Shown here: one piece after another, positions 1,289-64,000 of the stretch
How positions within the stretch are numbered: position 1 is the stretch's first letter
How the letters are laid out: the number at the start of each line of letters is the position of its first letter
Assembly (NCBI GenBank): GCA_949296965.1
Contig: CASFQL010000010.1
Coordinates: 194,115-258,114 of the forward strand
Source: an uncultured Christensenella sp.
GTDB lineage: Bacteria > Bacillota > Clostridia > Christensenellales > UBA1242
DNA length: 64,000 nt
Direction of reading: 5' to 3'
Notes under the pieces: model-generated
The model's input: the letters and a program-made list of their open reading frames with translations, nothing else
Told to the model about the DNA's origin: nothing
The model's database searches: none
Program-made: the position numbers and the translations under genes

Positions 1289-1316
1289 TTGACAAAACTT
1301 TTTTGATAGGTATAAT
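1289..1316 (+). promoter_or_regulatory. Sigma-A type promoter reading into structured leader and ylxM-ffh
   Basis: TTGACA (1289-1294), 16 nt spacer, TATAAT (1311-1316). Confidence 0.6.
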
Positions 1317-1346: not shown

Positions 1347-1442
1347 CGGGCTTTGTAGTGTGAAAATTTTAAAATAAAATTTTCACTGCGAAGTTTTATA
1401 AAAAACTTCGCACAAAAGTTTCACTTTTGATACAAAGCCCCG
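1347..1442 (+). repeat. Four-way-junction intergenic element, copy a (G+C-richer closing stem)
   Basis: Closing stem CGGGCTTTGTA / TACAAAGCCCCG encloses three hairpins: GTGAAAATTTT-aaaat-AAAATTTTCAC (1360-1386), GCGAAGTTTT-ataa-AAAACTTCGC (1388-1411) and CAAAAGT-ttc-ACTTTTG (1413-1429). Confidence 0.8.
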
Positions 1443-4977: not shown

Positions 4978-5006
4978 ATTATGTCTACTATAAATTATTT
5001 TTAAAG

Positions 5007-5105
5007 ACGAACTTTGTGCTGTAAAAATTTTATTAAAAATTTTTACAATTAGATTTTGCTTTGCAAAATCTAATGCAAAAGTGAAACTTTTGGCACAAAG
5101 TTCGT
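5007..5105 (+). repeat. Four-way-junction intergenic element, copy b
   Basis: 13-bp closing stem ACGAACTTTGTGC / GCACAAAGTTCGT encloses TGTAAAAATTTT-att-AAAAATTTTTACA, ATTAGATTTTGC..GCAAAATCTAAT and CAAAAGT-gaa-ACTTTTG. Confidence 0.85.
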
Positions 5106-5269
5106 TTAATCGTCATTTAGTTGCAGTAAACAAAACTAATTTTTAAAAATTTTACTATTTTTTATATAGATAAAATAGGTTTCTAGTGATAATTATTATT
5201 TTATTAATTTTAATTGTTATAAATATTAATTAGTTTGTTTAAATCTAATTAGTTGTTAAGAGGTAAAAT

Positions 5270-6070
5270 ATGTATGGTGCAATAATAGGAGATTTAGCAG
5301 GTTCAATTTATGAATATTCTCAAATAAAAAGCGTTCAAAAAGTAGAGTGTAAAAATTTGATTGAGAAAAATAGTTTTTATAGTGATGATACAATTTTAAC
5401 TATTGCAATATTGGATGCTATTATAAATAAAAAGGATTATGAAACTTGTTTAAAAGAGTATATAAGGAAATATGAAAACTACAAGCCAAATTTTAAGCCA
5501 TATTTTAGTTCTCCTTTTTCGCCAAGGTTAACAAAATGGGCAAATGGCAAAATTAAAGGCGATAGTAATGGGAATGGGGCAATGATGAGAATTTCTCCTA
5601 TTGGTTATCTTTATGACACAGAAGAAGAAGTGATTAAAAATACTTTTTTAGCAACAATACCATCACATAATAGTATAGAAGCAATTAAAAATGCTACTTT
5701 TGTTTCTCTTATAATTTTTTATGCTAGAAAAGGTCTTTGTAAAAAAGAAATAATAGAAAAATTAAATCTTAATATAAGAGAAACTAAATTGGATAATTTT
5801 AATATAACTTGTTCAACAACTATTGATGTCTGTTTATTTTCACTTTTTACATCAAATTCATTTGAAGAAAGTATTAGAAAAGTTTTATCTTACGGTGGGG
5901 ATACTGACACAAATGCTTGTATTGTTGGCTCAATGGCAGAGGCATTATATGGCTTAGATAAAAATTTAATAAGATTAGCAGAAAACTATATTCCCACTAA
6001 TTTTAGAGATTTACTTGAACAAGGTTATAGAAGAATTCAAAAAGAAAATAATAATGATTTACAAAAATAA
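5270..6070 (+). CDS. ADP-ribosylglycohydrolase family protein
   Basis: N-terminal GAIIGDLAGSIYE and C-terminal GGDTDTNACIVGSMAEALYG, both characteristic ARH-family metal-site motifs. Confidence 0.85.
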   Translation: MYGAIIGDLAGSIYEYSQIKSVQKVECKNLIEKNSFYSDDTILTIAILDAIINKKDYETCLKEYIRKYENYKPNFKPYFSSPFSPRLTKWANGKIKGDSNGNGAMMRISPIGYLYDTEEEVIKNTFLATIPSHNSIEAIKNATFVSLIIFYARKGLCKKEIIEKLNLNIRETKLDNFNITCSTTIDVCLFSLFTSNSFEESIRKVLSYGGDTDTNACIVGSMAEALYGLDKNLIRLAENYIPTNFRDLLEQGYRRIQKENNNDLQK

Positions 6071-6147
6071 AAAATTCTTATTTGATTTAGTTTTACATAA
6101 ATTATTCTTATAATAAAGAAAATTTATTCTTTTAGGAAAGTTTACAT

Positions 6148-9598: not shown

Positions 9599-9627
9599 AC
9601 TTTGTTTAATTTAACAAAGTTTTTTTA
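9599..9627 (+). terminator. Intrinsic terminator after rplS
   Basis: ACTTTGTT (9599-9606) pairs with AACAAAGT (9613-9620), followed by T7. Confidence 0.7.
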
Positions 9628-9723: not shown

Positions 9724-9810
9724 GAACTTTGTGCTGTAAAAATTTAAAAAATTTTTACTATGAAATTTTAAAAAATTTCATTCAAAAGTAGAACTTTTGG
9801 CACAAAGTTC
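9724..9810 (+). repeat. Four-way-junction intergenic element, copy c
   Basis: Closing stem GAACTTTGTGC / GCACAAAGTTC encloses GTAAAAATTT-aaa-AAATTTTTAC, ATGAAATTT..AAATTTCAT and CAAAAGT-aga-ACTTTTG. GTTTT follows. Confidence 0.85.
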
Positions 9811-18424: not shown

Positions 18425-18491
18425 ATTTTGATATTGAAAGACGCTAATTAAATAACTATGTGAGTTAATCAAAAAGTTAGTTAATCTAAAA

Positions 18492-25726: not shown

Positions 25727-25975
25727 GTAATCATAGTTAAGGCATTTGACAAGTAGGACTTAATATGGCTTTACCAGAGAAGGCAACAAATGGTGGAAGT
25801 TGCGTAAAAGTTCAGTTTTGTTACGAAACCACAAATTGCTCTATGTATTTTCGTAATTTTTAGAAAAAAATTACATAAAGTGGTTAATTTTTTAACAATA
25901 AAGGTGGAACCGCGGAAAAAGATATTGTTTTTTCGTCCTTTAACAATTTTTTAATTTGTTAAAGGGCTTTTTATT
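25727..25975 (+). promoter_or_regulatory. T-box riboswitch leader, threonine specifier (ACC)
   Basis: Stem I AGAGA and TGGTGGAAG distal-loop motifs. Specifier-loop context GAA-ACC-A (ACC at 25828-25830). T-box sequence AAAGGTGGAACCGCG (25900-25914). Terminator CCTTTAACAA / TTGTTAAAGG (25937-25966) plus T-run. Confidence 0.88.
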
Positions 25976-27863: not shown

Positions 27864-27950
27864 GGGGCTGTGAGTGGCGGGCTTTAAGCCCGCAAAACAC
27901 GAAAGTTTCGTGTTTTCAAATTTGATTTTATCAAATTTTCTCACAGCCCC
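27864..27950. repeat. Four-way-junction intergenic element, copy d (divergent, G+C-rich)
   Basis: Closing stem GGGGCTGTGAG / CTCACAGCCCC encloses GCGGGCTT-taa..GCCCGC, AAAACACGAAA-gtt-TCGTGTTTT and AAATTTGAT-ttt-ATCAAATTT. Confidence 0.75.
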
Positions 27951-28044: not shown

Positions 28045-28156
28045 TGTTTTAAGAAGAAGTGCCACTTCTCACCGTTTAATAATTAGGTTCAAACGGTTAA
28101 ATGCAATTATATTTTGATTGTTATAAGTGGGCTCCTTCCGAGTTCACTTTTTTTGT
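28045..28156 (+). promoter_or_regulatory. Candidate L20-type leader/attenuator upstream of infC
   Basis: Hairpin ACCGTTT..AAACGGT (about 28069-28097), then stem AAGTGGGCTC-cttcc-GAGTTCACTT (28125-28149). That stem has two G.U pairs valid only on the + strand RNA and is followed by T7. Firmicute infC operons are known to use an L20-responsive terminator leader. Confidence 0.5.
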
Positions 28157-28193
28157 TTGAACAAAAATGTAGCAAAAATGGAGGTATTTTGTT

Positions 28194-30642: not shown

Positions 30643-30650
30643 ACTTTAAA

Positions 30651-30684
30651 GGTAACAATGCTTTTAGTGTTGTTATCTTTTTTT
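30651..30684 (+). terminator. Intrinsic terminator after efp
   Basis: GGTAACAA (30651-30658) pairs with TTGTTATC (30670-30677), including one G.U that is valid only on the + strand. T7 follows. Confidence 0.7.
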
Positions 30685-30818
30685 AAGTTAATTATGATAT
30701 TTTTATAAGTTAATTATGATATTTTTATAAGTTAATTATGATATTTTTATAAGTTAATTGAGATATTTTTATAAGGTTATTAAAAGATTTTTCTATAAGT
30801 TAATTGAAAGATTTTTAC
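30685..30818 (+). repeat. Tandem array of 22-bp direct repeats (about 6 units)
   Basis: AAGTTAATTATGATATTTTTAT occurs at 30685, 30707 and 30729. Variants are AAGTTAATTGAGATATTTTTAT (30751), AAGGTTATTAAAAGATTTTTCTAT (30773) and AAGTTAATTGAAAGATTTTTAC (30797). Units abut with no spacers. Confidence 0.9.
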
Positions 30819-30858
30819 TAGATAAAATATATTTAGTGGGATTAAACTTATTTAAAAA

Positions 30859-30956
30859 GGGAACTATGTGCAAAAGTTAAACTTTTGCACGAAATTTTAA
30901 AAGTTTTTAAAATTTCGTTGTAAAATTTTTTTAAAAATTTTACTCACATAGTTCCC
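30859..30956 (-). repeat. Four-way-junction intergenic element, copy e (inverted hairpin order)
   Basis: Closing stem GGGAACTATGTG / CACATAGTTCCC encloses CAAAAGT-taa-ACTTTTG, ACGAAATTTTAAA-agtt-TTTAAAATTTCGT and GTAAAATTTT..AAAATTTTAC. A T-run follows on the minus strand. Confidence 0.85.
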
Positions 30957-31080
30957 GTATCTTATATAGTTTTTGTCAATATTATATATCTTATTTTTTT
31001 ATAGTTTGTAATAAAAAGTTGTTTAAATGATAAAAATTAAAAATATTAAATCTAGTAATAACTATAACTAATTTTATAAG

Positions 31081-31575
31081 AAGTTAAGGTAAAAGAGAAA
31101 ATTTATTTTCAATTTTACTTAACGACGACGAATCAAAATTATGTGACAAAAATGCTAATTTTTGAATTTAAAATTTAACTTAGTTAAATTCTAATAGTTG
31201 TTATTTTATTTTACAAAAATACAACAGCACATAATTTATATTATAGGAAGTTAAGGTAAAAGAGAAAATTTATTTTCATTTTTACTTAACGACGACAAAT
31301 CAAAATTATGTATCAAAATGCTAATTTTTGAATTTAAAATTTAACTTAGTTAAATTCTAATAGTTGTTATTTTATTTTACAAAAAATACAACAACACATA
31401 ATTTATATTATAGGAAGTTAAGGTAAAAGAGAAAATTTATTTTCAATTTTACTTAACGACGACAAATCAAAATTATGTGACAAAAATGCTAATTTTTGAA
31501 TTTAAAATTTAACTTGCTTAAATTTTAAAGGTTGTGATTTTATAAAAAATCACAACAACACATAATTTATATTAA
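31081..31575. repeat. Three head-to-tail copies of a 167-nt composite structured element
   Basis: AAGTTAAGG recurs at 31081, 31248 and 31415, giving a 167-nt period. Each unit has a long hairpin, then linker GACGAC(G/A)AAT, then closing stem AAATTATGTG / CACATAATTT around three hairpins. Confidence 0.9.
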
Positions 31576-31760
31576 TAAGTTTTTATTAGAAAAAATAAAG
31601 TAATAAGAAAAAGATGTTGCAAAAAAGTAATAATTATTATTAACACAAACTGTGAGTATAAGGTTATAAATAAATTATTTTTTAAAATATATATTTTTTG
31701 CAATATATTTACAAAAAATGAGCTATGCAAAACATATTTTCAATAAATCTAAAAACAAAA

Positions 31761-31797
31761 AATAGCAATACTTTTGTAGTATTGTTATTTTTTTTGT
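31761..31797 (+). terminator. Orphan + strand intrinsic terminator with no upstream annotated gene
   Basis: 12-bp stem AATAGCAATACT (31761-31772) / AGTATTGTTATT (31778-31789), with one G.U that is valid only on the + strand. T8-9 follows. Confidence 0.65.
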
Positions 31798-31856
31798 CGT
31801 TTTAGTTGTTTTGATAAAAAATCATAATATACATAAATAAAACAAGGAGACAGAGA

Positions 31857-45277: not shown

Positions 45278-45400
45278 ATTAAAAATTTTTAATTATTTTA
45301 ATTAGGTTTATTTAACACTTTATGTATTTAGAATTTTAATTATATTTGAATTTATATTTATATTTATATTTACAATTTTTATATTCTAGGAAGTTAAGGT

Positions 45401-45560
45401 AAAAAGGAAAATTTATTTTTATTTTTACTTAACGACGACAAATTCAAATTTTGTGCCAAAAATGTTAATTTTTGAATTAAAATTTAACCTAGTTAAATTT
45501 TAATAGTTGTTATTTTGTTTTTACAAAATTACAACAGCACATAATTTATATTTATGTAAT
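45401..45560. repeat. Solo copy of the 167-nt composite structured element
   Basis: Sequence AAGTTAAGGTAAAAAGGAAAATTTATTTTTATTTTTACTTAACGACGACAAAT...GCACATAATTTATA is colinear with the units at 31081-31575. Confidence 0.88.
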
Positions 45561-45624: not shown

Positions 45625-45718
45625 GGAACTATGTGCTGTGAAAATTAGAAAATTTTCACTGTGAAATTTTAAAGTTCTAAAATTTCACGCAAAAGTGAAA
45701 CTTTTGGCACATAGTTCC
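45625..45718 (+). repeat. Four-way-junction intergenic element, copy f
   Basis: Closing stem GGAACTATGTGC / GCACATAGTTCC encloses GTGAAAATT-agaa-AATTTTCAC, GTGAAATTTTA-aagttc-TAAAATTTCAC and CAAAAGT-gaa-ACTTTTG. T6 follows. Confidence 0.85.
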
Positions 45719-46018: not shown

Positions 46019-46741
46019 ATGATTAAATATAATGATGTAATTTTCTATTCAAAAGAGCATAATATTTTGCTTGCAAGTAAAGTAAAAGAAATTCTTTCTA
46101 AAAAAGAAAGAGGTGTTAATAATATTGATGACATTGATGATATTTTTATAAATGGAAAATTATCTTTTAAATATTTAATCTTAGATTTTAGTAAATCATC
46201 ACTTGATGAAAGATCAATAACAATTTTACAAAAGATGCTTAAAGGCAACTTAATACAAGAAATTGTAATTATAACTAACAATAATCTTTTTAAAATTCCT
46301 GAATTTATATATGTTAATTTAGATGAGGATTTTACATATAATTTTAGTAGGACTTTTGATAAAATAATCGAAAGGGAAATTAATACAATTAATGAAGTGG
46401 CTGGCATATGGAGAAAAATTATTAGTCAACAACTTTGCGATTGGGGATTTTCTTCAAATACAATGGGATACCTTGAAATTATTGATAGTATTATATATTA
46501 TGCAGAACGAAAAGGTGTAATAAAAAATTTTAATAAGGAAGTTTATATCTACTTGTCAAATAAGTATAGAGCCACTACAACATGTGTAGAATTAAGTATA
46601 AGAAAAGCAATTAAAAAGGCTTCTTTAAAGAAAGATAAATTCCCAAGAATTGAGAAATTAACTAACAAAGGTTTTATAACTTACGCTATTTCACAATTAT
46701 ATGATAATTTAATTGAAAATAGAGTTATAAAAACGGCTTAG
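46019..46741 (+). CDS. spo0A: Spo0A-like sporulation regulator with atypical receiver domain
   Basis: The C-terminal half aligns by eye to Spo0A_C: GFSSNTMGYLEIIDSI.., FNKEVYIYLSNKYRATTTCVELSIRKAIKKAS, KLTNKGFITYAISQL. It lies downstream of spoIVB. The N-terminal REC-like half lacks the acidic pair and conserved Lys. Confidence 0.8.
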   Translation: MIKYNDVIFYSKEHNILLASKVKEILSKKERGVNNIDDIDDIFINGKLSFKYLILDFSKSSLDERSITILQKMLKGNLIQEIVIITNNNLFKIPEFIYVNLDEDFTYNFSRTFDKIIEREINTINEVAGIWRKIISQQLCDWGFSSNTMGYLEIIDSIIYYAERKGVIKNFNKEVYIYLSNKYRATTTCVELSIRKAIKKASLKKDKFPRIEKLTNKGFITYAISQLYDNLIENRVIKTA

Positions 46742-51268: not shown

Positions 51269-52184
51269 ATCACATTTAAAAAATATTGTCGAAGGGATTT
51301 TATTTGTTTCTGGACAAGGTGTTGAGATAAAAGATATAGCAGAAAAACTTGAAGTTAGCGAAAAAGAAGTTAAGGAAGTTATTGAACAACTAAAAGAAGA
51401 ACATAAAGACGATGGAATTAATGTCATAACATATAAATCAAGTGCTCAAATGTGTTCAAATCCAATTTATGCTGATGACATTGCAACTGTATTAAATCCT
51501 ATAAGAGAAAAACAACTTACAAAGGCTGCACTTGAAACTCTTGCTATTATAGCATATAAGCAACCTGTAACAAGACTTGACATTGAGCAGGTTAGGGGGG
51601 TTAACTGCGATTATGCAATGCAAATTTTGATAAATTTTAATCTAGTTGAAGTCGTTGGAAGAAAAGATGTTATTGGTAAACCATTACTTTTTGGGACTAC
51701 CGATGAATTTTTAAAGAGATTTGATTTAAATTCAATTGATGATTTGCCAGATTATGAAGAATTGCTAAGCAGAATTAAAGTTTTACACGAAAGTGTTTCA
51801 AATTCATTATATAAAAGCACTGAAATTATCCCAGAAGAAGAATTGCCAGATAGTAAAGCAAGGCTTGAAAAAGAAAAAGCGAAAGATGATAATAATTCTA
51901 GTTTGGATAATAATATAATAAGTGATGAAGAAAGTAAAAGTTCTTCAAATGATACTTTTATGGATAATTTAAAAGAAAAAGATTTTTCAAAGACTGAAAA
52001 TGATGATTTTTCTAATATGAATGGTCAATTATTTGAAAATTTAGAACAATCAGTCGGCGATGAAACCCTGAAAAATGGTGAAAACTATGAAACTGAATTT
52101 ACTGAGATAAAAGTAAGAGAAACACTATCAAATGAATTTGAAAATGAAGATTTTTTTAACGAAAAAGATGATGATTTATTATAA
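51255..52184 (+). CDS. scpB: Segregation and condensation protein B with long acidic C-terminal tail
   Basis: LKNIVEGILFVSGQGV, winged-helix repeats and GKPLLFGTTDEFLKRF, plus a low-complexity acidic tail of about 130 aa. Confidence 0.92.
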   Translation: MQQDKSHLKNIVEGILFVSGQGVEIKDIAEKLEVSEKEVKEVIEQLKEEHKDDGINVITYKSSAQMCSNPIYADDIATVLNPIREKQLTKAALETLAIIAYKQPVTRLDIEQVRGVNCDYAMQILINFNLVEVVGRKDVIGKPLLFGTTDEFLKRFDLNSIDDLPDYEELLSRIKVLHESVSNSLYKSTEIIPEEELPDSKARLEKEKAKDDNNSSLDNNIISDEESKSSSNDTFMDNLKEKDFSKTENDDFSNMNGQLFENLEQSVGDETLKNGENYETEFTEIKVRETLSNEFENEDFFNEKDDDLL

Positions 52185-52233
52185 AAAATAATTTTTTAAG
52201 AAAAGAATTTCGACTATCTAGTCGGTTATTTTA

Positions 52234-52259
52234 AGTCCCTTAAAAAAGGGGCTTTTTTT
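52234..52259 (+). terminator. Intrinsic terminator after scpB
   Basis: AGTCCCTT (52234-52241) pairs with AAGGGGCT (52246-52253), including one G.U that is valid only on the + strand. T7 follows. Confidence 0.7.
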
Positions 52260-52512
52260 ATAATTTATATTAAAAAACTAAAATTAATATTAGACACAAA
52301 ATGCTCTCTAAAAAACATTTAACAGATTATTTATAAAAGTTAATATAAAAAATTTAGTGTAAACATTACTATATAAATTATAAATTTTTTTGACTTATAT
52401 CTAACTACTATTAATATTTTATAAAGTAAGTTTACAAATATCTGTTCAAACATATATTCAAAGGTAAATTATAAATGCAATAAAACATAATTTATCAAGT
52501 TCTATACAAATT

Positions 52513-63072: not shown

Positions 63073-63161
63073 GGAACTCTGTGTCAAAAGTTTCACTTTT
63101 GGGTGAAGTTTGAAAAACTTCACTGTAAAAATTTTGTAAAAATTTTTACGCACAGAGTTCC
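63073..63161 (-). repeat. Four-way-junction intergenic element, copy g (inverted hairpin order)
   Basis: Closing stem GGAACTCTGTG / CACAGAGTTCC encloses CAAAAGT-ttc-ACTTTTG, GTGAAGTTT-gaaa-AACTTCAC and GTAAAAATTTT-gta-AAAATTTTTAC. T6 follows on the minus strand. Confidence 0.85.
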
Positions 63162-63213
63162 ATTTTAAATTAAATATAGTTTTAGGAAAATATTATAATA
63201 AAAACATAAACAT

Positions 63214-63275
63214 AAGTTAAAATCAATAAGTTAAAATAATAAGTTAAAATCAATAAATTAAATAAGTTGATTTTA
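63214..63275 (+). repeat. Short tandem AAGTTAAAAT(C/A)AAT repeats
   Basis: AAGTTAAAATCAAT (63214), AAGTTAAAATAAT (63228) and AAGTTAAAATCAAT (63241), then degenerate AAATTAAAT and AAGTTGATTTT. Confidence 0.75.
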
Positions 63276-63314
63276 ATATGAAGTATAAAAGTAAAAATAT
63301 ATTTATATAAAAAA

Positions 63315-63335
63315 ACTCCCATTTTAAATGGGAGT
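63315..63335. terminator. Hairpin terminator between convergent genes
   Basis: ACTCCCA-ttttaaa-TGGGAGT. A7 lies upstream and TATCTTTTT downstream, so on the minus strand the hairpin is followed by T7, terminating the 63343-64000 gene. Confidence 0.7.
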
Positions 63336-63342
63336 TATCTTT

Positions 63343-64000
63343 TTATAAATTTGGGGTTTGTTCATCAGGGTGTTCAATTGACGGTTTATCAGTGCTTGAA
63401 GTATTAGGGTCTTGTGTATTTCCACCAGAACTTCCACCAGATGAATGACCACCACTCCTATCTATTGTATAAGTTGTAGGCTTAAACAATTCATGTTGCC
63501 TTATTGATTTTTCAACTTGTGGGTTTTTACTATCAAAAGAATAAACTCCACCAATTCCAGCAGAGAAATTTGTATCAAATAAATTATTTATGGAAGATCC
63601 AACTTTTGCATACAATGTAAGAGTATCTTTATCATTATTTACAGGTATATTGACTCCACCAAATGCAGACAATTCTGTTGTTGGGTTAGTAGGAACACCA
63701 GAAACTCCTGCTTCTCCACCAACAAAGCCAGAAACTTTTCTTTTATCTCCATTATTATCTTGGCTATTGATTTCAATATAATTATTTCTTTTATCTTCAC
63801 TATTTAATTGACTTAAATTTGATAGATTAATATTTGGGTCATTTTTCATTGTTTCAATAATCTTTTTATATTCATCAATTGTTGGATTTTCAAGATCTAA
63901 TTGACTTAAATTTGATAGATTAATATTTGGGTCATTTTTCATTGTTTCAATAATCTTTTTATATTCATCAATTGTTGGATTTTCAAGTTGTTCAACTTTT
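63343..64000 (-). CDS. Hypothetical tandem-repeat protein, partial (frame stays open past the right window edge)
   Basis: The 93-nt / 31-aa unit MKNDPNINLSNLSQL(D/N)(L/S)ENPTIDEYKKIIET is repeated, with DNA repeat starts at 63808 and 63901. The same frame continues as ...VEQLENPTIDEYKKIIET to position 64000. The C-terminal part is Gly/Ser-rich with no family I recognise. Confidence 0.65.
   Translation of the reverse strand, partial: KVEQLENPTIDEYKKIIETMKNDPNINLSNLSQLDLENPTIDEYKKIIETMKNDPNINLSNLSQLNSEDKRNNYIEINSQDNNGDKRKVSGFVGGEAGVSGVPTNPTTELSAFGGVNIPVNNDKDTLTLYAKVGSSINNLFDTNFSAGIGGVYSFDSKNPQVEKSIRQHELFKPTTYTIDRSGGHSSGGSSGGNTQDPNTSSTDKPSIEHPDEQTPNL

What the first reader, a model, noticed from the sequence alone, without database searches (positions are those of the whole stretch)
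5007..5105. Seven copies in 64 kb of a ~90-100 nt intergenic element that folds as a closed four-way junction (closing stem plus three hairpins)
Copies lie at 1347-1442, 5007-5105, 9724-9810, 27864-27950, 30859-30956, 45625-45718 and 63073-63161, and every one is intergenic. In the exemplar (5007-5105), a 13-bp closing stem ACGAACTTTGTGC/GCACAAAGTTCGT encloses three hairpins with only 0-2 nt between helices. Hairpin A is TGTAAAAATTTT-att-AAAAATTTTTACA, hairpin B is ATTAGATTTTGC..GCAAAATCTAAT, and hairpin C is CAAAAGT-gaa-ACTTTTG. The architecture is kept while the sequence changes in base-pair-preserving ways. The third pair of hairpin A is G-C in the copies at 1360 and 45638 but A-T in the others. 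The first two pairs of hairpin B read GC/GC (1388), AT/AT (9760), GT/AC (45661), AC/GT (30889) and GT/AC (63103). The closing stems GAACTTTGTGC, GGAACTATGTGC and GGAACTCTGTG each have a matching 3' strand. Two copies (30859, 63073) carry the hairpins in inverted order C-B-A. Read in the A-B-C sense, four copies are followed directly by a T-run: 9811 GTTTT, 45719 TTTTTT, and the minus strands of 30859 and 63073. This gives the element a polarity and suggests it is transcribed and ends at, or acts as, an intrinsic terminator. One copy per ~9 kb is very dense for a structured repeat in a compact genome. I do not recognise it as a named RNA family, REP/BOX/MITE type or riboswitch. Candidate roles are a structured RNA (3'-UTR stabiliser, complex terminator or sRNA), a single-stranded DNA fold recognised by an HUH/Y1 (RAYT-like) enzyme encoded elsewhere, or stacked palindromic protein-binding sites.
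Basis: seen in the sequence. Interest (0 to 1): 0.85.

Follow-up and report, generated by a model that had tools for sequence, protein, structure and literature searches.

The report
Nested-palindrome four-way-junction intergenic repeat
An uncultured low-GC gut-type Clostridia bacterium carries many copies of a ~90-base intergenic repeat that folds into a stem closing three perfect hairpins; it behaves like a new family of small DNA-level palindromic (mobile-type) repeats, some of which probably double as transcription terminators, and not like a dedicated structured RNA.

Summary
All seven listed copies fold as a closing stem plus three hairpins (z -7.7 to -11.2). A sequence-blind scan finds this shape only in family members.

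I found more copies: one 10 kb upstream on the same scaffold, three in a sister-species MAG, four degraded ones inside a 167-nt repeat, and a variant next to thrS in both species. Nothing matches in Rfam, GTDB genomes, JGI metagenomes, viral contigs, plasmids or phages.

Covariation is very strong: 16 of 36 pairs show double changes, none in 500 shuffles reach this. It is of an unusual kind:
- 415 Watson-Crick pairs to 1 G-U, with no one-sided changes.
- Both strands fold equally well.
- The conserved bases lie in the stems, not the loops.
- Hairpin loops occur as reverse complements of each other.

This points to DNA-level palindromy rather than a strand-specific RNA. Five orthologous intergenic regions in the sister species lack the element, yet copies at different loci in the two species are up to 87% identical. 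This suggests turnover of a mobile-type repeat.

I found no target duplications and no transposase. About half the copies carry a T-run placed to terminate the neighbouring gene; two sit in 5' UTRs.

Verdict: a new variant of the REP/MITE/BOX class with an unusual closed four-way architecture. The mechanism is unproven.

The parts
1348..1440 (+). Main-family copy. Closing stem GGGCTTTGTA/TACAAAGCCC with hairpins A, B and C. It lies about 30 nt downstream of a perfect TTGACA-16-TATAAT promoter, so it is in the ylxM-ffh 5' UTR. No T-run.
   Evidence: (93.7 bits)
1289..1316 (+). Sigma-70-type promoter (12/12 match) of ylxM-ffh. It is conserved in the sister species, where the element is absent.
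5007..5105 (+). Exemplar copy, 30 nt after the trmD stop. It sits at the left edge of a 1.17-kb segment (element plus an ADP-ribosylglycohydrolase gene) that is absent from the sister species.
   Evidence: 89.6 bits
9724..9810 (+). Main-family copy about 100 nt beyond the ordinary rplS terminator (9600-9625). Followed by GTTTTATTAT.
   Evidence: (93.7 bits)
27864..27950 (.). Variant junction in the thrS-infC spacer. It has the same architecture and a related closing stem (GGGGCTGTGAG), but unrelated hairpins and no T-run. The sister species has a 70-nt counterpart in the same spacer.
   Evidence: (no CM hit)
30859..30956 (-). Main-family copy in minus sense, with a T-run on the minus strand. 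It lies inside a ~1-kb repeat-rich insertion between efp and spoIIIAA.
   Evidence: (85.7 bits)
31136..31237 (-). Degraded junction inside unit 1 of the 167-nt tandem repeat.
   Evidence: (24.1 bits, E 0.009)
31303..31404 (-). Degraded junction inside unit 2 of the 167-nt tandem repeat.
31470..31568 (-). Intact junction inside unit 3 of the 167-nt tandem repeat. Closing stem AAATTATGTG/CACATAATTT.
   Evidence: (40 bits, E 2e-6)
45446..45547 (-). Junction inside the dispersed fourth 167-nt unit (45378-45552), in the spoIVB-spo0A spacer.
   Evidence: (33.8 bits, E 5e-5)
45625..45718 (+). Main-family copy followed by TTTTTT, downstream of spoIVB and upstream of the conserved spo0A promoter region.
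   Evidence: (94.6 bits)
63073..63161 (-). Main-family copy between convergent genes. CCTTTTTT follows on the minus strand. The minus-strand gene also has its own simple terminator at about 63311-63345.
   Evidence: (88.9 bits)

Best explanation
The element is a small, non-coding, interspersed DNA repeat of the REP/MITE/BOX kind. It is a nested palindrome: a 10-13 bp terminal inverted repeat encloses three short palindromes. It has spread to, and been lost from, intergenic sites in one narrow lineage of uncultured low-GC sporulating Clostridia.

Shown:
- It is multicopy: 8 intact junctions in about 74 kb, plus 4 inside a 167-nt repeat.
- It occurs in both orientations.
- It is absent from five orthologous spacers of the sister species, although that species carries copies elsewhere.
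- Copies at non-orthologous loci in the two species stay up to 87% identical.
- Every stem is perfectly Watson-Crick on both strands, and all stem variation is double-sided.

Inferred:
- The arms are kept perfect by a DNA-level process, namely intrastrand template switching or hairpin-templated correction. This process homogenises inverted-repeat arms and inverts their spacers. Selection on a single RNA strand is the less likely cause.
- The conserved stem sequences (junction-proximal TGTG/CACA, hairpin A GTAAAAATTT, hairpin C CAAAAGT) are what a trans-acting mobilising or binding protein recognises. This probably happens on the folded single strand.
- When transcribed, the element forms a very stable four-way-junction RNA. 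About half the copies have a T-run next to the closing stem, and there it serves as an intrinsic terminator or 3'-end block for the adjacent gene. Copies tolerated in 5' UTRs or operons lack the T-run.
For: - Fold and significance.
- Family size and spread.
- Covariation: 98.6% of cells paired; 16 pairs and 34 cells with double changes; 0 one-sided changes; 0 of 500 shuffles reach this; slid controls near zero.
- 415 Watson-Crick pairs to 1 G-U, with equal energies on both strands. By contrast, the ordinary conserved terminator near 31762-31800 contains a G.T position, read directly.
- Hairpin C loops occur as reverse complements: GAA x4 versus TTC, and AAA versus TTT.
- The thrS-linked junctions of the two species align better when one is inverted, score 14 versus 6.
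- The sister species lacks the element at ftsY-ylxM, trmD 3', rplS 3', efp-spoIIIAA and spoIVB-spo0A.
- Copies do not cluster by genome: 76% identity within the window species, 75% between species, and the best cross-species pair is 87%.
- Assemblies from other samples break at the repeats.
- T-run: 5 of 12 sense flanks against a 12.7% background, and 5 of the 6 T-run copies face the upstream gene.
- Template switching is documented to homogenise inverted-repeat arms, invert spacers and produce apparent compensatory changes (PMC8794818, PMC8604942).
Against: - No target-site duplication and no conserved insertion target.
- No transposase, integrase or HUH gene in the roughly 74 kb of this genome that could be read.
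- Four strains at 99.76-99.98% identity show no gain, loss or flip of any copy, so mobility rests on between-species comparison only.
- Three sequence-unrelated versions (main family, thrS-linked, 167-nt unit) all keep exactly three hairpins and a closed junction. The thrS-linked one sits in the same spacer in two species. Both points hint at selection for the architecture itself, which a purely selfish repeat does not predict.
- There are no decayed solo hairpins.
Confidence: 0.5

Rival explanations
1. A host-selected, orientation-independent (bidirectional) complex transcription terminator or RNA 3'-end stabiliser family. The four-way junction is selected at the RNA level on both strands, which would also forbid G-U pairs. 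The copies are functional punctuation rather than selfish DNA.
For: - All copies lie at gene ends or between operons.
- A T-run adjoins 6 of 24 flanks, and 5 of those 6 face the upstream gene.
- In the sister MAG, L007:2872 lies 22 nt after a stop codon with T7 on the coding strand.
- The sister species has a plain GAACTTTTT/AAAAAGTTC+T7 terminator where the window has the 45625 copy.
- The architecture is kept in three sequence families.
- Hairpin clusters have been proposed as termination units (PMC8355165).
Against: - Half the copies have no T-run on either side.
- w1347 and L002:7736 lie just downstream of promoters in 5' UTRs of essential or large genes.
- rplS and the 63343-63942 gene already have their own simple terminators upstream of the element.
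- w30859 has its T-run on the strand opposite to efp.
- The element is absent from the same gene ends in the sister species.
- The overall T-run enrichment is weak (p about 0.07).
Confidence: 0.2
2. A strand-specific structured non-coding RNA (cis-regulatory element, sRNA or riboswitch-like four-way junction).
For: - Strong covariation and very stable folds.
- The T-run is biased toward the A-B-C sense: 5 of 12 sense flanks against 1 of 12 antisense.
- TATAAT-like boxes lie upstream of some copies.
Against: - No G-U pairs and no one-sided changes.
- Both strands fold equally well.
- Conservation lies in stems, with variable A/T-only loops and 0-2 nt junction linkers, so there is no conserved single-stranded ligand or target site.
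- Loops occur as complements.
- Orientation is mixed relative to genes and to the leading strand.
- There is no positional conservation between species.
- No Rfam match.
Confidence: 0.07
3. Stacked palindromic double-stranded DNA binding sites for dimeric proteins (a nucleoid-associated protein, regulator or partition-type protein). The closing stem would then be simply an outer inverted repeat.
For: - Hairpins A and C have conserved arms with variable 3-4 nt spacers, the classic operator layout.
- Two copies lie next to clusters of ATAAGTTAA direct repeats, at 30705-30803 and 63212-63247.
Against: - Hairpin B and the outer closing stem vary freely, yet always with perfectly matched partners up to 70-90 nt apart. 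Sequence-specific dimer binding does not require this.
- The thrS-linked and 167-nt versions keep the architecture with different sequences.
Confidence: 0.08

Closest known systems
Pneumococcal BOX / RUP / SPRITE small interspersed repeats (PMC3049150)
   Same: - Firmicute, AT-rich, about 100 nt, intergenic and multicopy.
- Tightly folded, with the terminal inverted repeats paired to each other.
- Modular interior (boxA-B-C).
- SPRITE is a terminator-like repeat with a U-rich tail.
- Species-restricted, with slow turnover.
   Different: - No sequence relation is known or was tested.
- BOX and RUP are described as MITEs whose inverted-repeat ends resemble those of IS elements.
- Here there is no target duplication and no IS partner.
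- The interior here is three independent perfect palindromes forming a closed four-way junction, and all stem variation is Watson-Crick compensated.
REP / BIME / REPIN elements with RAYT (Y1 HUH) transposases (PMC3116915, PMC3333891, PMC8266576)
   Same: - Extragenic palindromes at gene ends with no target duplication.
- Recognised as folded single strands.
- Persist as within-genome populations.
- Reported roles in termination and mRNA stability.
   Different: - REPs are single, imperfect, G+C-rich hairpins of about 20-40 nt with a conserved 5' tetranucleotide, often arranged in inverted pairs.
- This element is a 70-100 nt, A+T-rich nested palindrome with three hairpins.
- No RAYT gene could be sought.
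Neisseria Correia elements and other bacterial MITEs
   Same: - About 100-150 bp with terminal inverted repeats.
- Intergenic, in either orientation.
- Form stable RNA stem-loops when co-transcribed and can create or end transcripts.
   Different: Correia elements have 26-bp inverted-repeat ends and a TA duplication, and they fold as one long hairpin. This element has none of these features.
Intrinsic (Rho-independent) terminators, including hairpin clusters (PMC8355165)
   Same: A G/C-clamped stem is directly followed by a T-run in about half the copies, and these face the upstream gene.
   Different: - The stem closes a multibranch loop rather than a simple loop.
- Half the copies lack any T-run.
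- Some copies lie in 5' UTRs.
- The element is a repeated, sequence-conserved family.
Parvovirus/AAV inverted terminal repeats and other nested-palindrome DNA ends
   Same: An outer palindrome closes small inner palindromes into a branched single-strand fold. Flip and flop orientations are expected from such symmetry.
   Different: AAV ends form a three-way (T-shaped) fold at genome termini and are processed by a Rep HUH nuclease. The elements here are four-way, chromosomal and interspersed, and no such enzyme has been identified. This is resemblance only.

Membership tests
Any Rfam 15 RNA family | Covariance-model score at or above the gathering threshold | tested here: not met
   No hit on any copy at gathering score or at E<=10 over the whole window. 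The only matches were the sub-threshold T-box and L20 leader elsewhere.
MITE | Terminal inverted repeats | tested here: met
   A perfect 10-13 bp inverted repeat bounds every copy.
MITE | Target-site duplication flanking the element | tested here: not met
   Flanks of 12 copies show no direct repeat and no common target.
MITE | Insertion/absence polymorphism at orthologous sites | tested here: met
   Five spacers are occupied in the window and empty in the sister species. No polymorphism was seen among four near-identical strains.
MITE | Partner IS/transposase with matching inverted-repeat ends in the same genome | not testable with these tools
   Only about 74 kb of this genome and about 58 kb of the sister genome are reachable, and neither holds a transposase.
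REP/REPIN-RAYT | Short, imperfect, G+C-rich hairpin with a conserved 5' tetranucleotide, typically as inverted pairs | tested here: not met
   The element is A+T-rich (24-33% GC), 70-100 nt long, has three perfect hairpins inside a closing stem, and occurs as single units.
REP/REPIN-RAYT | Cognate RAYT (Y1 transposase) gene in the genome, flanked by the repeats | not testable with these tools
IS200/IS605-derived PATE | Subterminal imperfect hairpins and insertion 3' of a fixed tetra- or pentanucleotide | tested here: not met
   The 5' flanks are unrelated (cattgc, ttaaag, tttagg, agatac, tatatat...).
Intrinsic terminator | Stable stem directly followed by a U-tract on the transcribed strand | tested here: inconclusive
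   6 of 24 flanks carry a T-run against a 12.7% background (p 0.07). On the sense strand it is 5 of 12. Five of the 6 T-run copies face the upstream gene. Six elements have none.
Structured functional RNA (generic) | Covariation that includes G-U intermediates, strand asymmetry, and conserved unpaired nucleotides | tested here: not met
   415 Watson-Crick pairs to 1 G-U, 0 one-sided changes, equal energies on both strands, and variable loops that occur as complements.
Integron attC | A single imperfect hairpin (R''-L''/L'-R') with extrahelical bases, in an array next to intI | tested here: not met
   The element has a perfect branched fold with no extrahelical bases, is dispersed among housekeeping genes, and no integrase is present.

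The most novel reading that the evidence does not exclude
The closed four-way junction itself may be the selected unit: a single-stranded DNA (or symmetric DNA/RNA) structure read by a structure-specific enzyme or machine that is not yet described for such a substrate. Examples would be an HUH/Y1-type or junction-specific recombinase that copies, flips and maintains the elements, or a host system using them as replication or transcription punctuation.

The evidence leaves this open. Three sequence-unrelated versions all keep exactly three hairpins, 0-2 nt linkers and a junction-proximal TGTG/CACA. The thrS-linked version sits in the same spacer in two species with almost complete sequence turnover and an apparent inversion. 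No decayed copies or solo hairpins exist.
Probability: 0.2. Interest if true: 0.8.

Novelty: new variant of a known kind. Interest (0 to 1): 0.5.

Why it matters
Small palindromic repeats (REP, BOX, Correia) shape bacterial transcription and genome plasticity, but almost all known families are simple hairpins from cultured Proteobacteria or streptococci.

This family comes from an uncultured, reduced-genome Clostridia lineage and has a branched, perfectly self-complementary architecture. Its variation is entirely double-sided, which makes it a clean natural case for separating RNA-level selection from DNA-level arm homogenisation as the cause of "compensatory" covariation. Covariation statistics alone would have called this a structured RNA, so it is also a warning for RNA discovery pipelines.

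The repeats break metagenome assemblies of this organism. If a dedicated junction-recognising enzyme exists, it would be a new type of mobile-element machinery.

Tried and rejected
- Rfam search at gathering score and at E<=10: no match on any copy.
- Pattern scans for hairpin C plus the closing stem. GTDB species genomes gave only two true hits, both in one sister MAG; the rest were chance hits. JGI metagenomes gave 11 chance hits. IMG/VR viral contigs gave 1 chance hit.
- BLAST against plasmids and phages: nothing.
- Target-site duplications, a conserved insertion target, or a conserved 3' tail shared with the 167-nt unit: no consistent flank conservation, and the tail similarity is not above shuffles.
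- Solo closing-stem hairpins as precursors or excision footprints: only the rplS terminator matches (ACTTTGT..ACAAAGT, present in both species). I treat this as a possible coincidence.
- Decayed solo hairpins A or C: nothing above chance.
- Strain-level polymorphism or flip-flop: four strains are too similar, and the only SNP is in a loop.
- Transposase or HUH genes: none in the readable DNA.
- tblastx of the sister loci L002 and L007 against the window returned nothing usable, so orthology of those sites could not be examined.
- Literature searches for a described four-way or cloverleaf interspersed repeat found none.

Full report
**1. What is there**

The window is about 28% G+C with a strong positive GC skew and almost all genes on the plus strand. 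It carries housekeeping and sporulation genes: ftsY, ylxM-ffh, trmD, rplS, yifB, dprA, topA, thrS, infC, efp, spoIIIAA-AH, xseA, spoIVB and spo0A. It lies on a 263-kb metagenomic scaffold, ENA ERZ16268208 scaffold_72. Related proteins are labelled "Clostridia" or "Christensenellales" MAGs.

All seven listed sequences fold as a 10-13 bp closing stem enclosing exactly three hairpins with 0-2 nt linkers. RNA energies are -31 to -48 kcal/mol, z-scores are -7.7 to -11.2, and no shuffle folds as well. With DNA parameters, both strands give the same shape and nearly the same energy.

A conserved-motif pattern gives 6 hits against 0.00 expected. A scan that ignores sequence (perfect outer stem, at least 3 hairpins, under 25% unpaired, strong energy) returns only these elements in the window and in the sister species. 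It returns none in 85 kb from four related loci.

**2. Extent of the family**

Six window copies are clear sequence relatives: 1348, 5007, 9724, 45625 in plus sense, and 30859, 63073 in minus sense. I found four further members:
- One lies 10 kb upstream on the same scaffold, at L037:1702-1797 between dapA and dapB.
- Three lie in MAG GCA_949290565.1, the closest relative (YifB 84% identical): L002:7736-7817, L007:2872-2951 and L007:5826-5915.

A covariance model built from nine copies scores all of them at 82-95 bits. It also detects weaker minus-sense junctions inside a 167-nt repeat, with E-values of 2e-6, 5e-5 and 9e-3. That repeat has three tandem units at 31068-31576 and a fourth at 45378-45552; the units are 93% identical and each holds a junction plus an extra hairpin.

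The copy at 27864 is not recognised by the model. It has the architecture and a related closing stem (GGGGCTGTGAG), but different hairpins. The sister species has a 70-nt junction (GGCTGTGCAAA...) in the same thrS-infC spacer. The two align better when one is inverted, score 14 versus 6.

Nothing else matches:
- Rfam, at gathering score and at E<=10.
- 185,579 GTDB species genomes: only the sister MAG.
- JGI metagenomes.
- IMG/VR viral contigs.
- Plasmids and phages.

Loci from relatives at 75-78% YifB identity, and a third species at the same XseA distance as the sister, have none.

**3. The nature of the covariation**

On the 10-copy alignment, 98.6% of the 355 pair cells are standard pairs. 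Sixteen of 36 pairs (34 cells) show changes on both sides. No shuffle in 500 reaches this, and sliding the 3' partners abolishes the signal (the 9-copy version is).

Not one pair varies on one side only. In the minimum-free-energy folds of the 11 clean junctions (nine main-family copies and the two thrS-linked ones) there are 415 Watson-Crick pairs and 1 G-U, and sense and antisense energies differ by about 1 kcal/mol in most copies and by at most 2.9. An ordinary terminator conserved in both species (window about 31762-31800) does contain a G.T position (sequence), so this genome does not avoid wobble pairs in general.

Three further features stand out:
- Conserved bases are in the stems: closing-stem CTNTGTG, hairpin A GTAAAAATTT and hairpin C CAAAAGT.
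- Loops and hairpin B vary.
- Hairpin C loops occur as reverse complements of one another: GAA four times against TTC, and AAA against TTT.

These are signatures of DNA-level palindromy. They are not what selection on a single RNA strand produces; that tolerates G-U, is strand-asymmetric, and usually conserves unpaired nucleotides. Intrastrand template switching is documented to homogenise inverted-repeat arms, invert their spacers and create apparent compensatory substitutions in one step (PMC8794818, PMC8604942). I infer, but have not shown, that this or hairpin-templated repair keeps the arms perfect.

**4. Turnover**

The sister species is syntenic over most of the window, yet it lacks the element at five of the orthologous spacers:
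- **ftsY-ylxM:** the promoter and a small leader hairpin align, and the element is an extra block in the window.
- **After trmD:** trmD overlaps the next gene in the sister. The window has the element plus an extra ADP-ribosylglycohydrolase gene.
- **After rplS.**
- **efp-spoIIIAA:** 213 nt in the sister against 1,214 nt in the window.
- **spoIVB-spo0A**.

Only the thrS-infC spacer is occupied in both species.

Copies do not cluster by genome. Mean identity is 76% within the window species and 75% between species, and L007:2872 is 85-87% identical to w5007 and w45625. The surrounding spacers are barely alignable. So the family predates the species split, its stem sequences are constrained, and individual insertions come and go. 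This is the behaviour of REP/REPIN or MITE populations.

Against simple cut-and-paste transposition, there are no target duplications, no common target and no conserved tail. No transposase lies in the reachable DNA. Four strains at 99.76-99.98% identity carry identical copies, with one SNP in a loop, so recent mobility is not demonstrated. Contigs from other samples end inside the 9724 copy or the 167-nt repeats, as expected for multicopy sequence.

**5. Relation to transcription**

The copy at 1348 lies about 30 nt downstream of the best promoter match in 20 kb (TTGACA-16-TATAAT, 1289-1316). It is therefore inside the ylxM-ffh leader. L002:7736 likewise follows a TGnTATAAT box upstream of an 887-aa gene. 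Neither copy has a T-run.

A T-run (at least 5 T in 6, within 2 nt of the stem) adjoins 6 of 24 flanks, against 12.7% of positions in this window's intergenic DNA (p about 0.07). On the A-B-C sense strand it is 5 of 12, against 1 of 12 antisense. Five of the six T-run copies are oriented to stop the neighbouring upstream gene: rplS, spoIVB, dapA, the 63343-63942 gene, and the L007 1741-2850 gene. The last of these works in the C-B-A sense.

Where the window has the 45625 copy, the sister species has a plain terminator, GAACTTTTT-TATA-AAAAGTTC+T7. The rplS gene and the 63343 gene keep their own simple terminators upstream of the element.

A terminator or 3'-end role is thus plausible for about half the copies. 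It is not a property of the family as a whole, and it does not depend on the order of the inner hairpins.

**6. Best explanation and rivals**

The best-supported reading (about 0.5) is a new family of small interspersed nested-palindrome DNA repeats:
- They are maintained at the DNA level.
- They are probably recognised through their conserved stems by an unidentified trans-acting protein.
- They are secondarily used as terminators or RNA-end blocks where a T-run is present.

The rivals are:
- a host-selected bidirectional terminator family (about 0.2);
- stacked dimer-binding sites (about 0.08);
- a strand-specific ncRNA (about 0.07).

What keeps the terminator reading and more exotic readings alive is the fidelity of the architecture. 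There are three sequence-unrelated versions, always with three hairpins, always closed, and always with TGTG/CACA next to the junction. One spacer is occupied in both species despite sequence turnover. No decayed remnants exist.

**7. Comparison with known families**

The element works most like the pneumococcal BOX/RUP/SPRITE repeats and like REP/REPIN elements, but it fails defining features of each:
- MITE: no target duplication.
- REP: not a short, G+C-rich, imperfect hairpin.
- PATE: no fixed target.
- Any RNA family: no Rfam membership.

Partner genes could not be tested. I rate it a new variant of a known kind, with interest about 0.5. I give a 0.2 chance that the four-way junction is the substrate of a dedicated, undescribed structure-specific system, which would be much more interesting.

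Noticed in passing
window 31068-31576 and 45378-45552: A 167-nt repeat with three tandem units plus one dispersed unit 14 kb away; the units are 93% identical. Each unit combines a degraded or intact four-way junction with an extra bulged hairpin (GTTAAGGTAAAAG...TTTTACTTAAC). There is no Rfam match. Contigs from two other samples end inside it.
   Followed up: partly
window 30670-30826 and 63212-63247: 22-nt tandem repeats (TTATGATATTTTTATAAGTTAA, about 6-7 units) and a second cluster of the shared core ATAAGTTAA. There are 10 matches in the window against 4.4 expected, and 7 of them fall in these two clusters. Each cluster lies 30-150 nt from a minus-sense element. They look like iterons or protein-binding sites.
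   Followed up: partly
window 30643-31856: The efp-spoIIIAA spacer is 1,214 nt here but 213 nt in the sister species. The extra ~1 kb consists entirely of repeats (22-nt array, one junction element, three 167-nt units) inserted upstream of a terminator-like hairpin (about 31762-31800) that is conserved in both species.
   Followed up: partly
window 4978-6147: An ADP-ribosylglycohydrolase gene (5270-6070) together with the 5007 element is absent from the sister species, where trmD overlaps the radical-SAM gene directly. The element sits at the left edge of this lineage-specific insertion. No second element lies at the right edge.
   Followed up: partly
window 9600-9625; L031 about 18440-18475: The ordinary rplS terminator (ACTTTGT..ACAAAGT+T7, conserved in both species) and the sister's spoIVB terminator (GAACTTTTT..AAAAAGTTC+T7) resemble the core and outer part of the element's closing stem. 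This may be a clue to origin (hairpins added inside a terminator loop), or it may be coincidence in A+T-rich DNA.
   Followed up: partly
window 25736-25943 and 28045-28161: A T-box leader upstream of thrS (52.8 bits, below the gathering score of 93) and an L20 leader upstream of infC-rpmI-rplT (53.9 bits, below 58.7). Both are full-length matches in the expected positions, so they are likely genuine but divergent.
   Followed up: no
window 52178-52264: Three unrelated hairpins enclosed by an A-run/T-run pairing between the convergent scpB gene and a class A PBP gene. It looks like an ordinary bidirectional terminator cluster and is not a member of the family.
   Followed up: no
window 63781-63966: Two 93-nt tandem copies (90% identical). 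The first lies inside the minus-strand ORF 63343-63942, which has no Pfam hit at E<=1e-5; the second runs past that ORF's start codon.
   Followed up: no
window 46019-46741: The spo0A homologue (240 aa) hits only the Spo0A C-terminal domain in Pfam at E<=1e-5. No receiver-domain hit is listed for it here or for its orthologues in L031 and L033.
   Followed up: no
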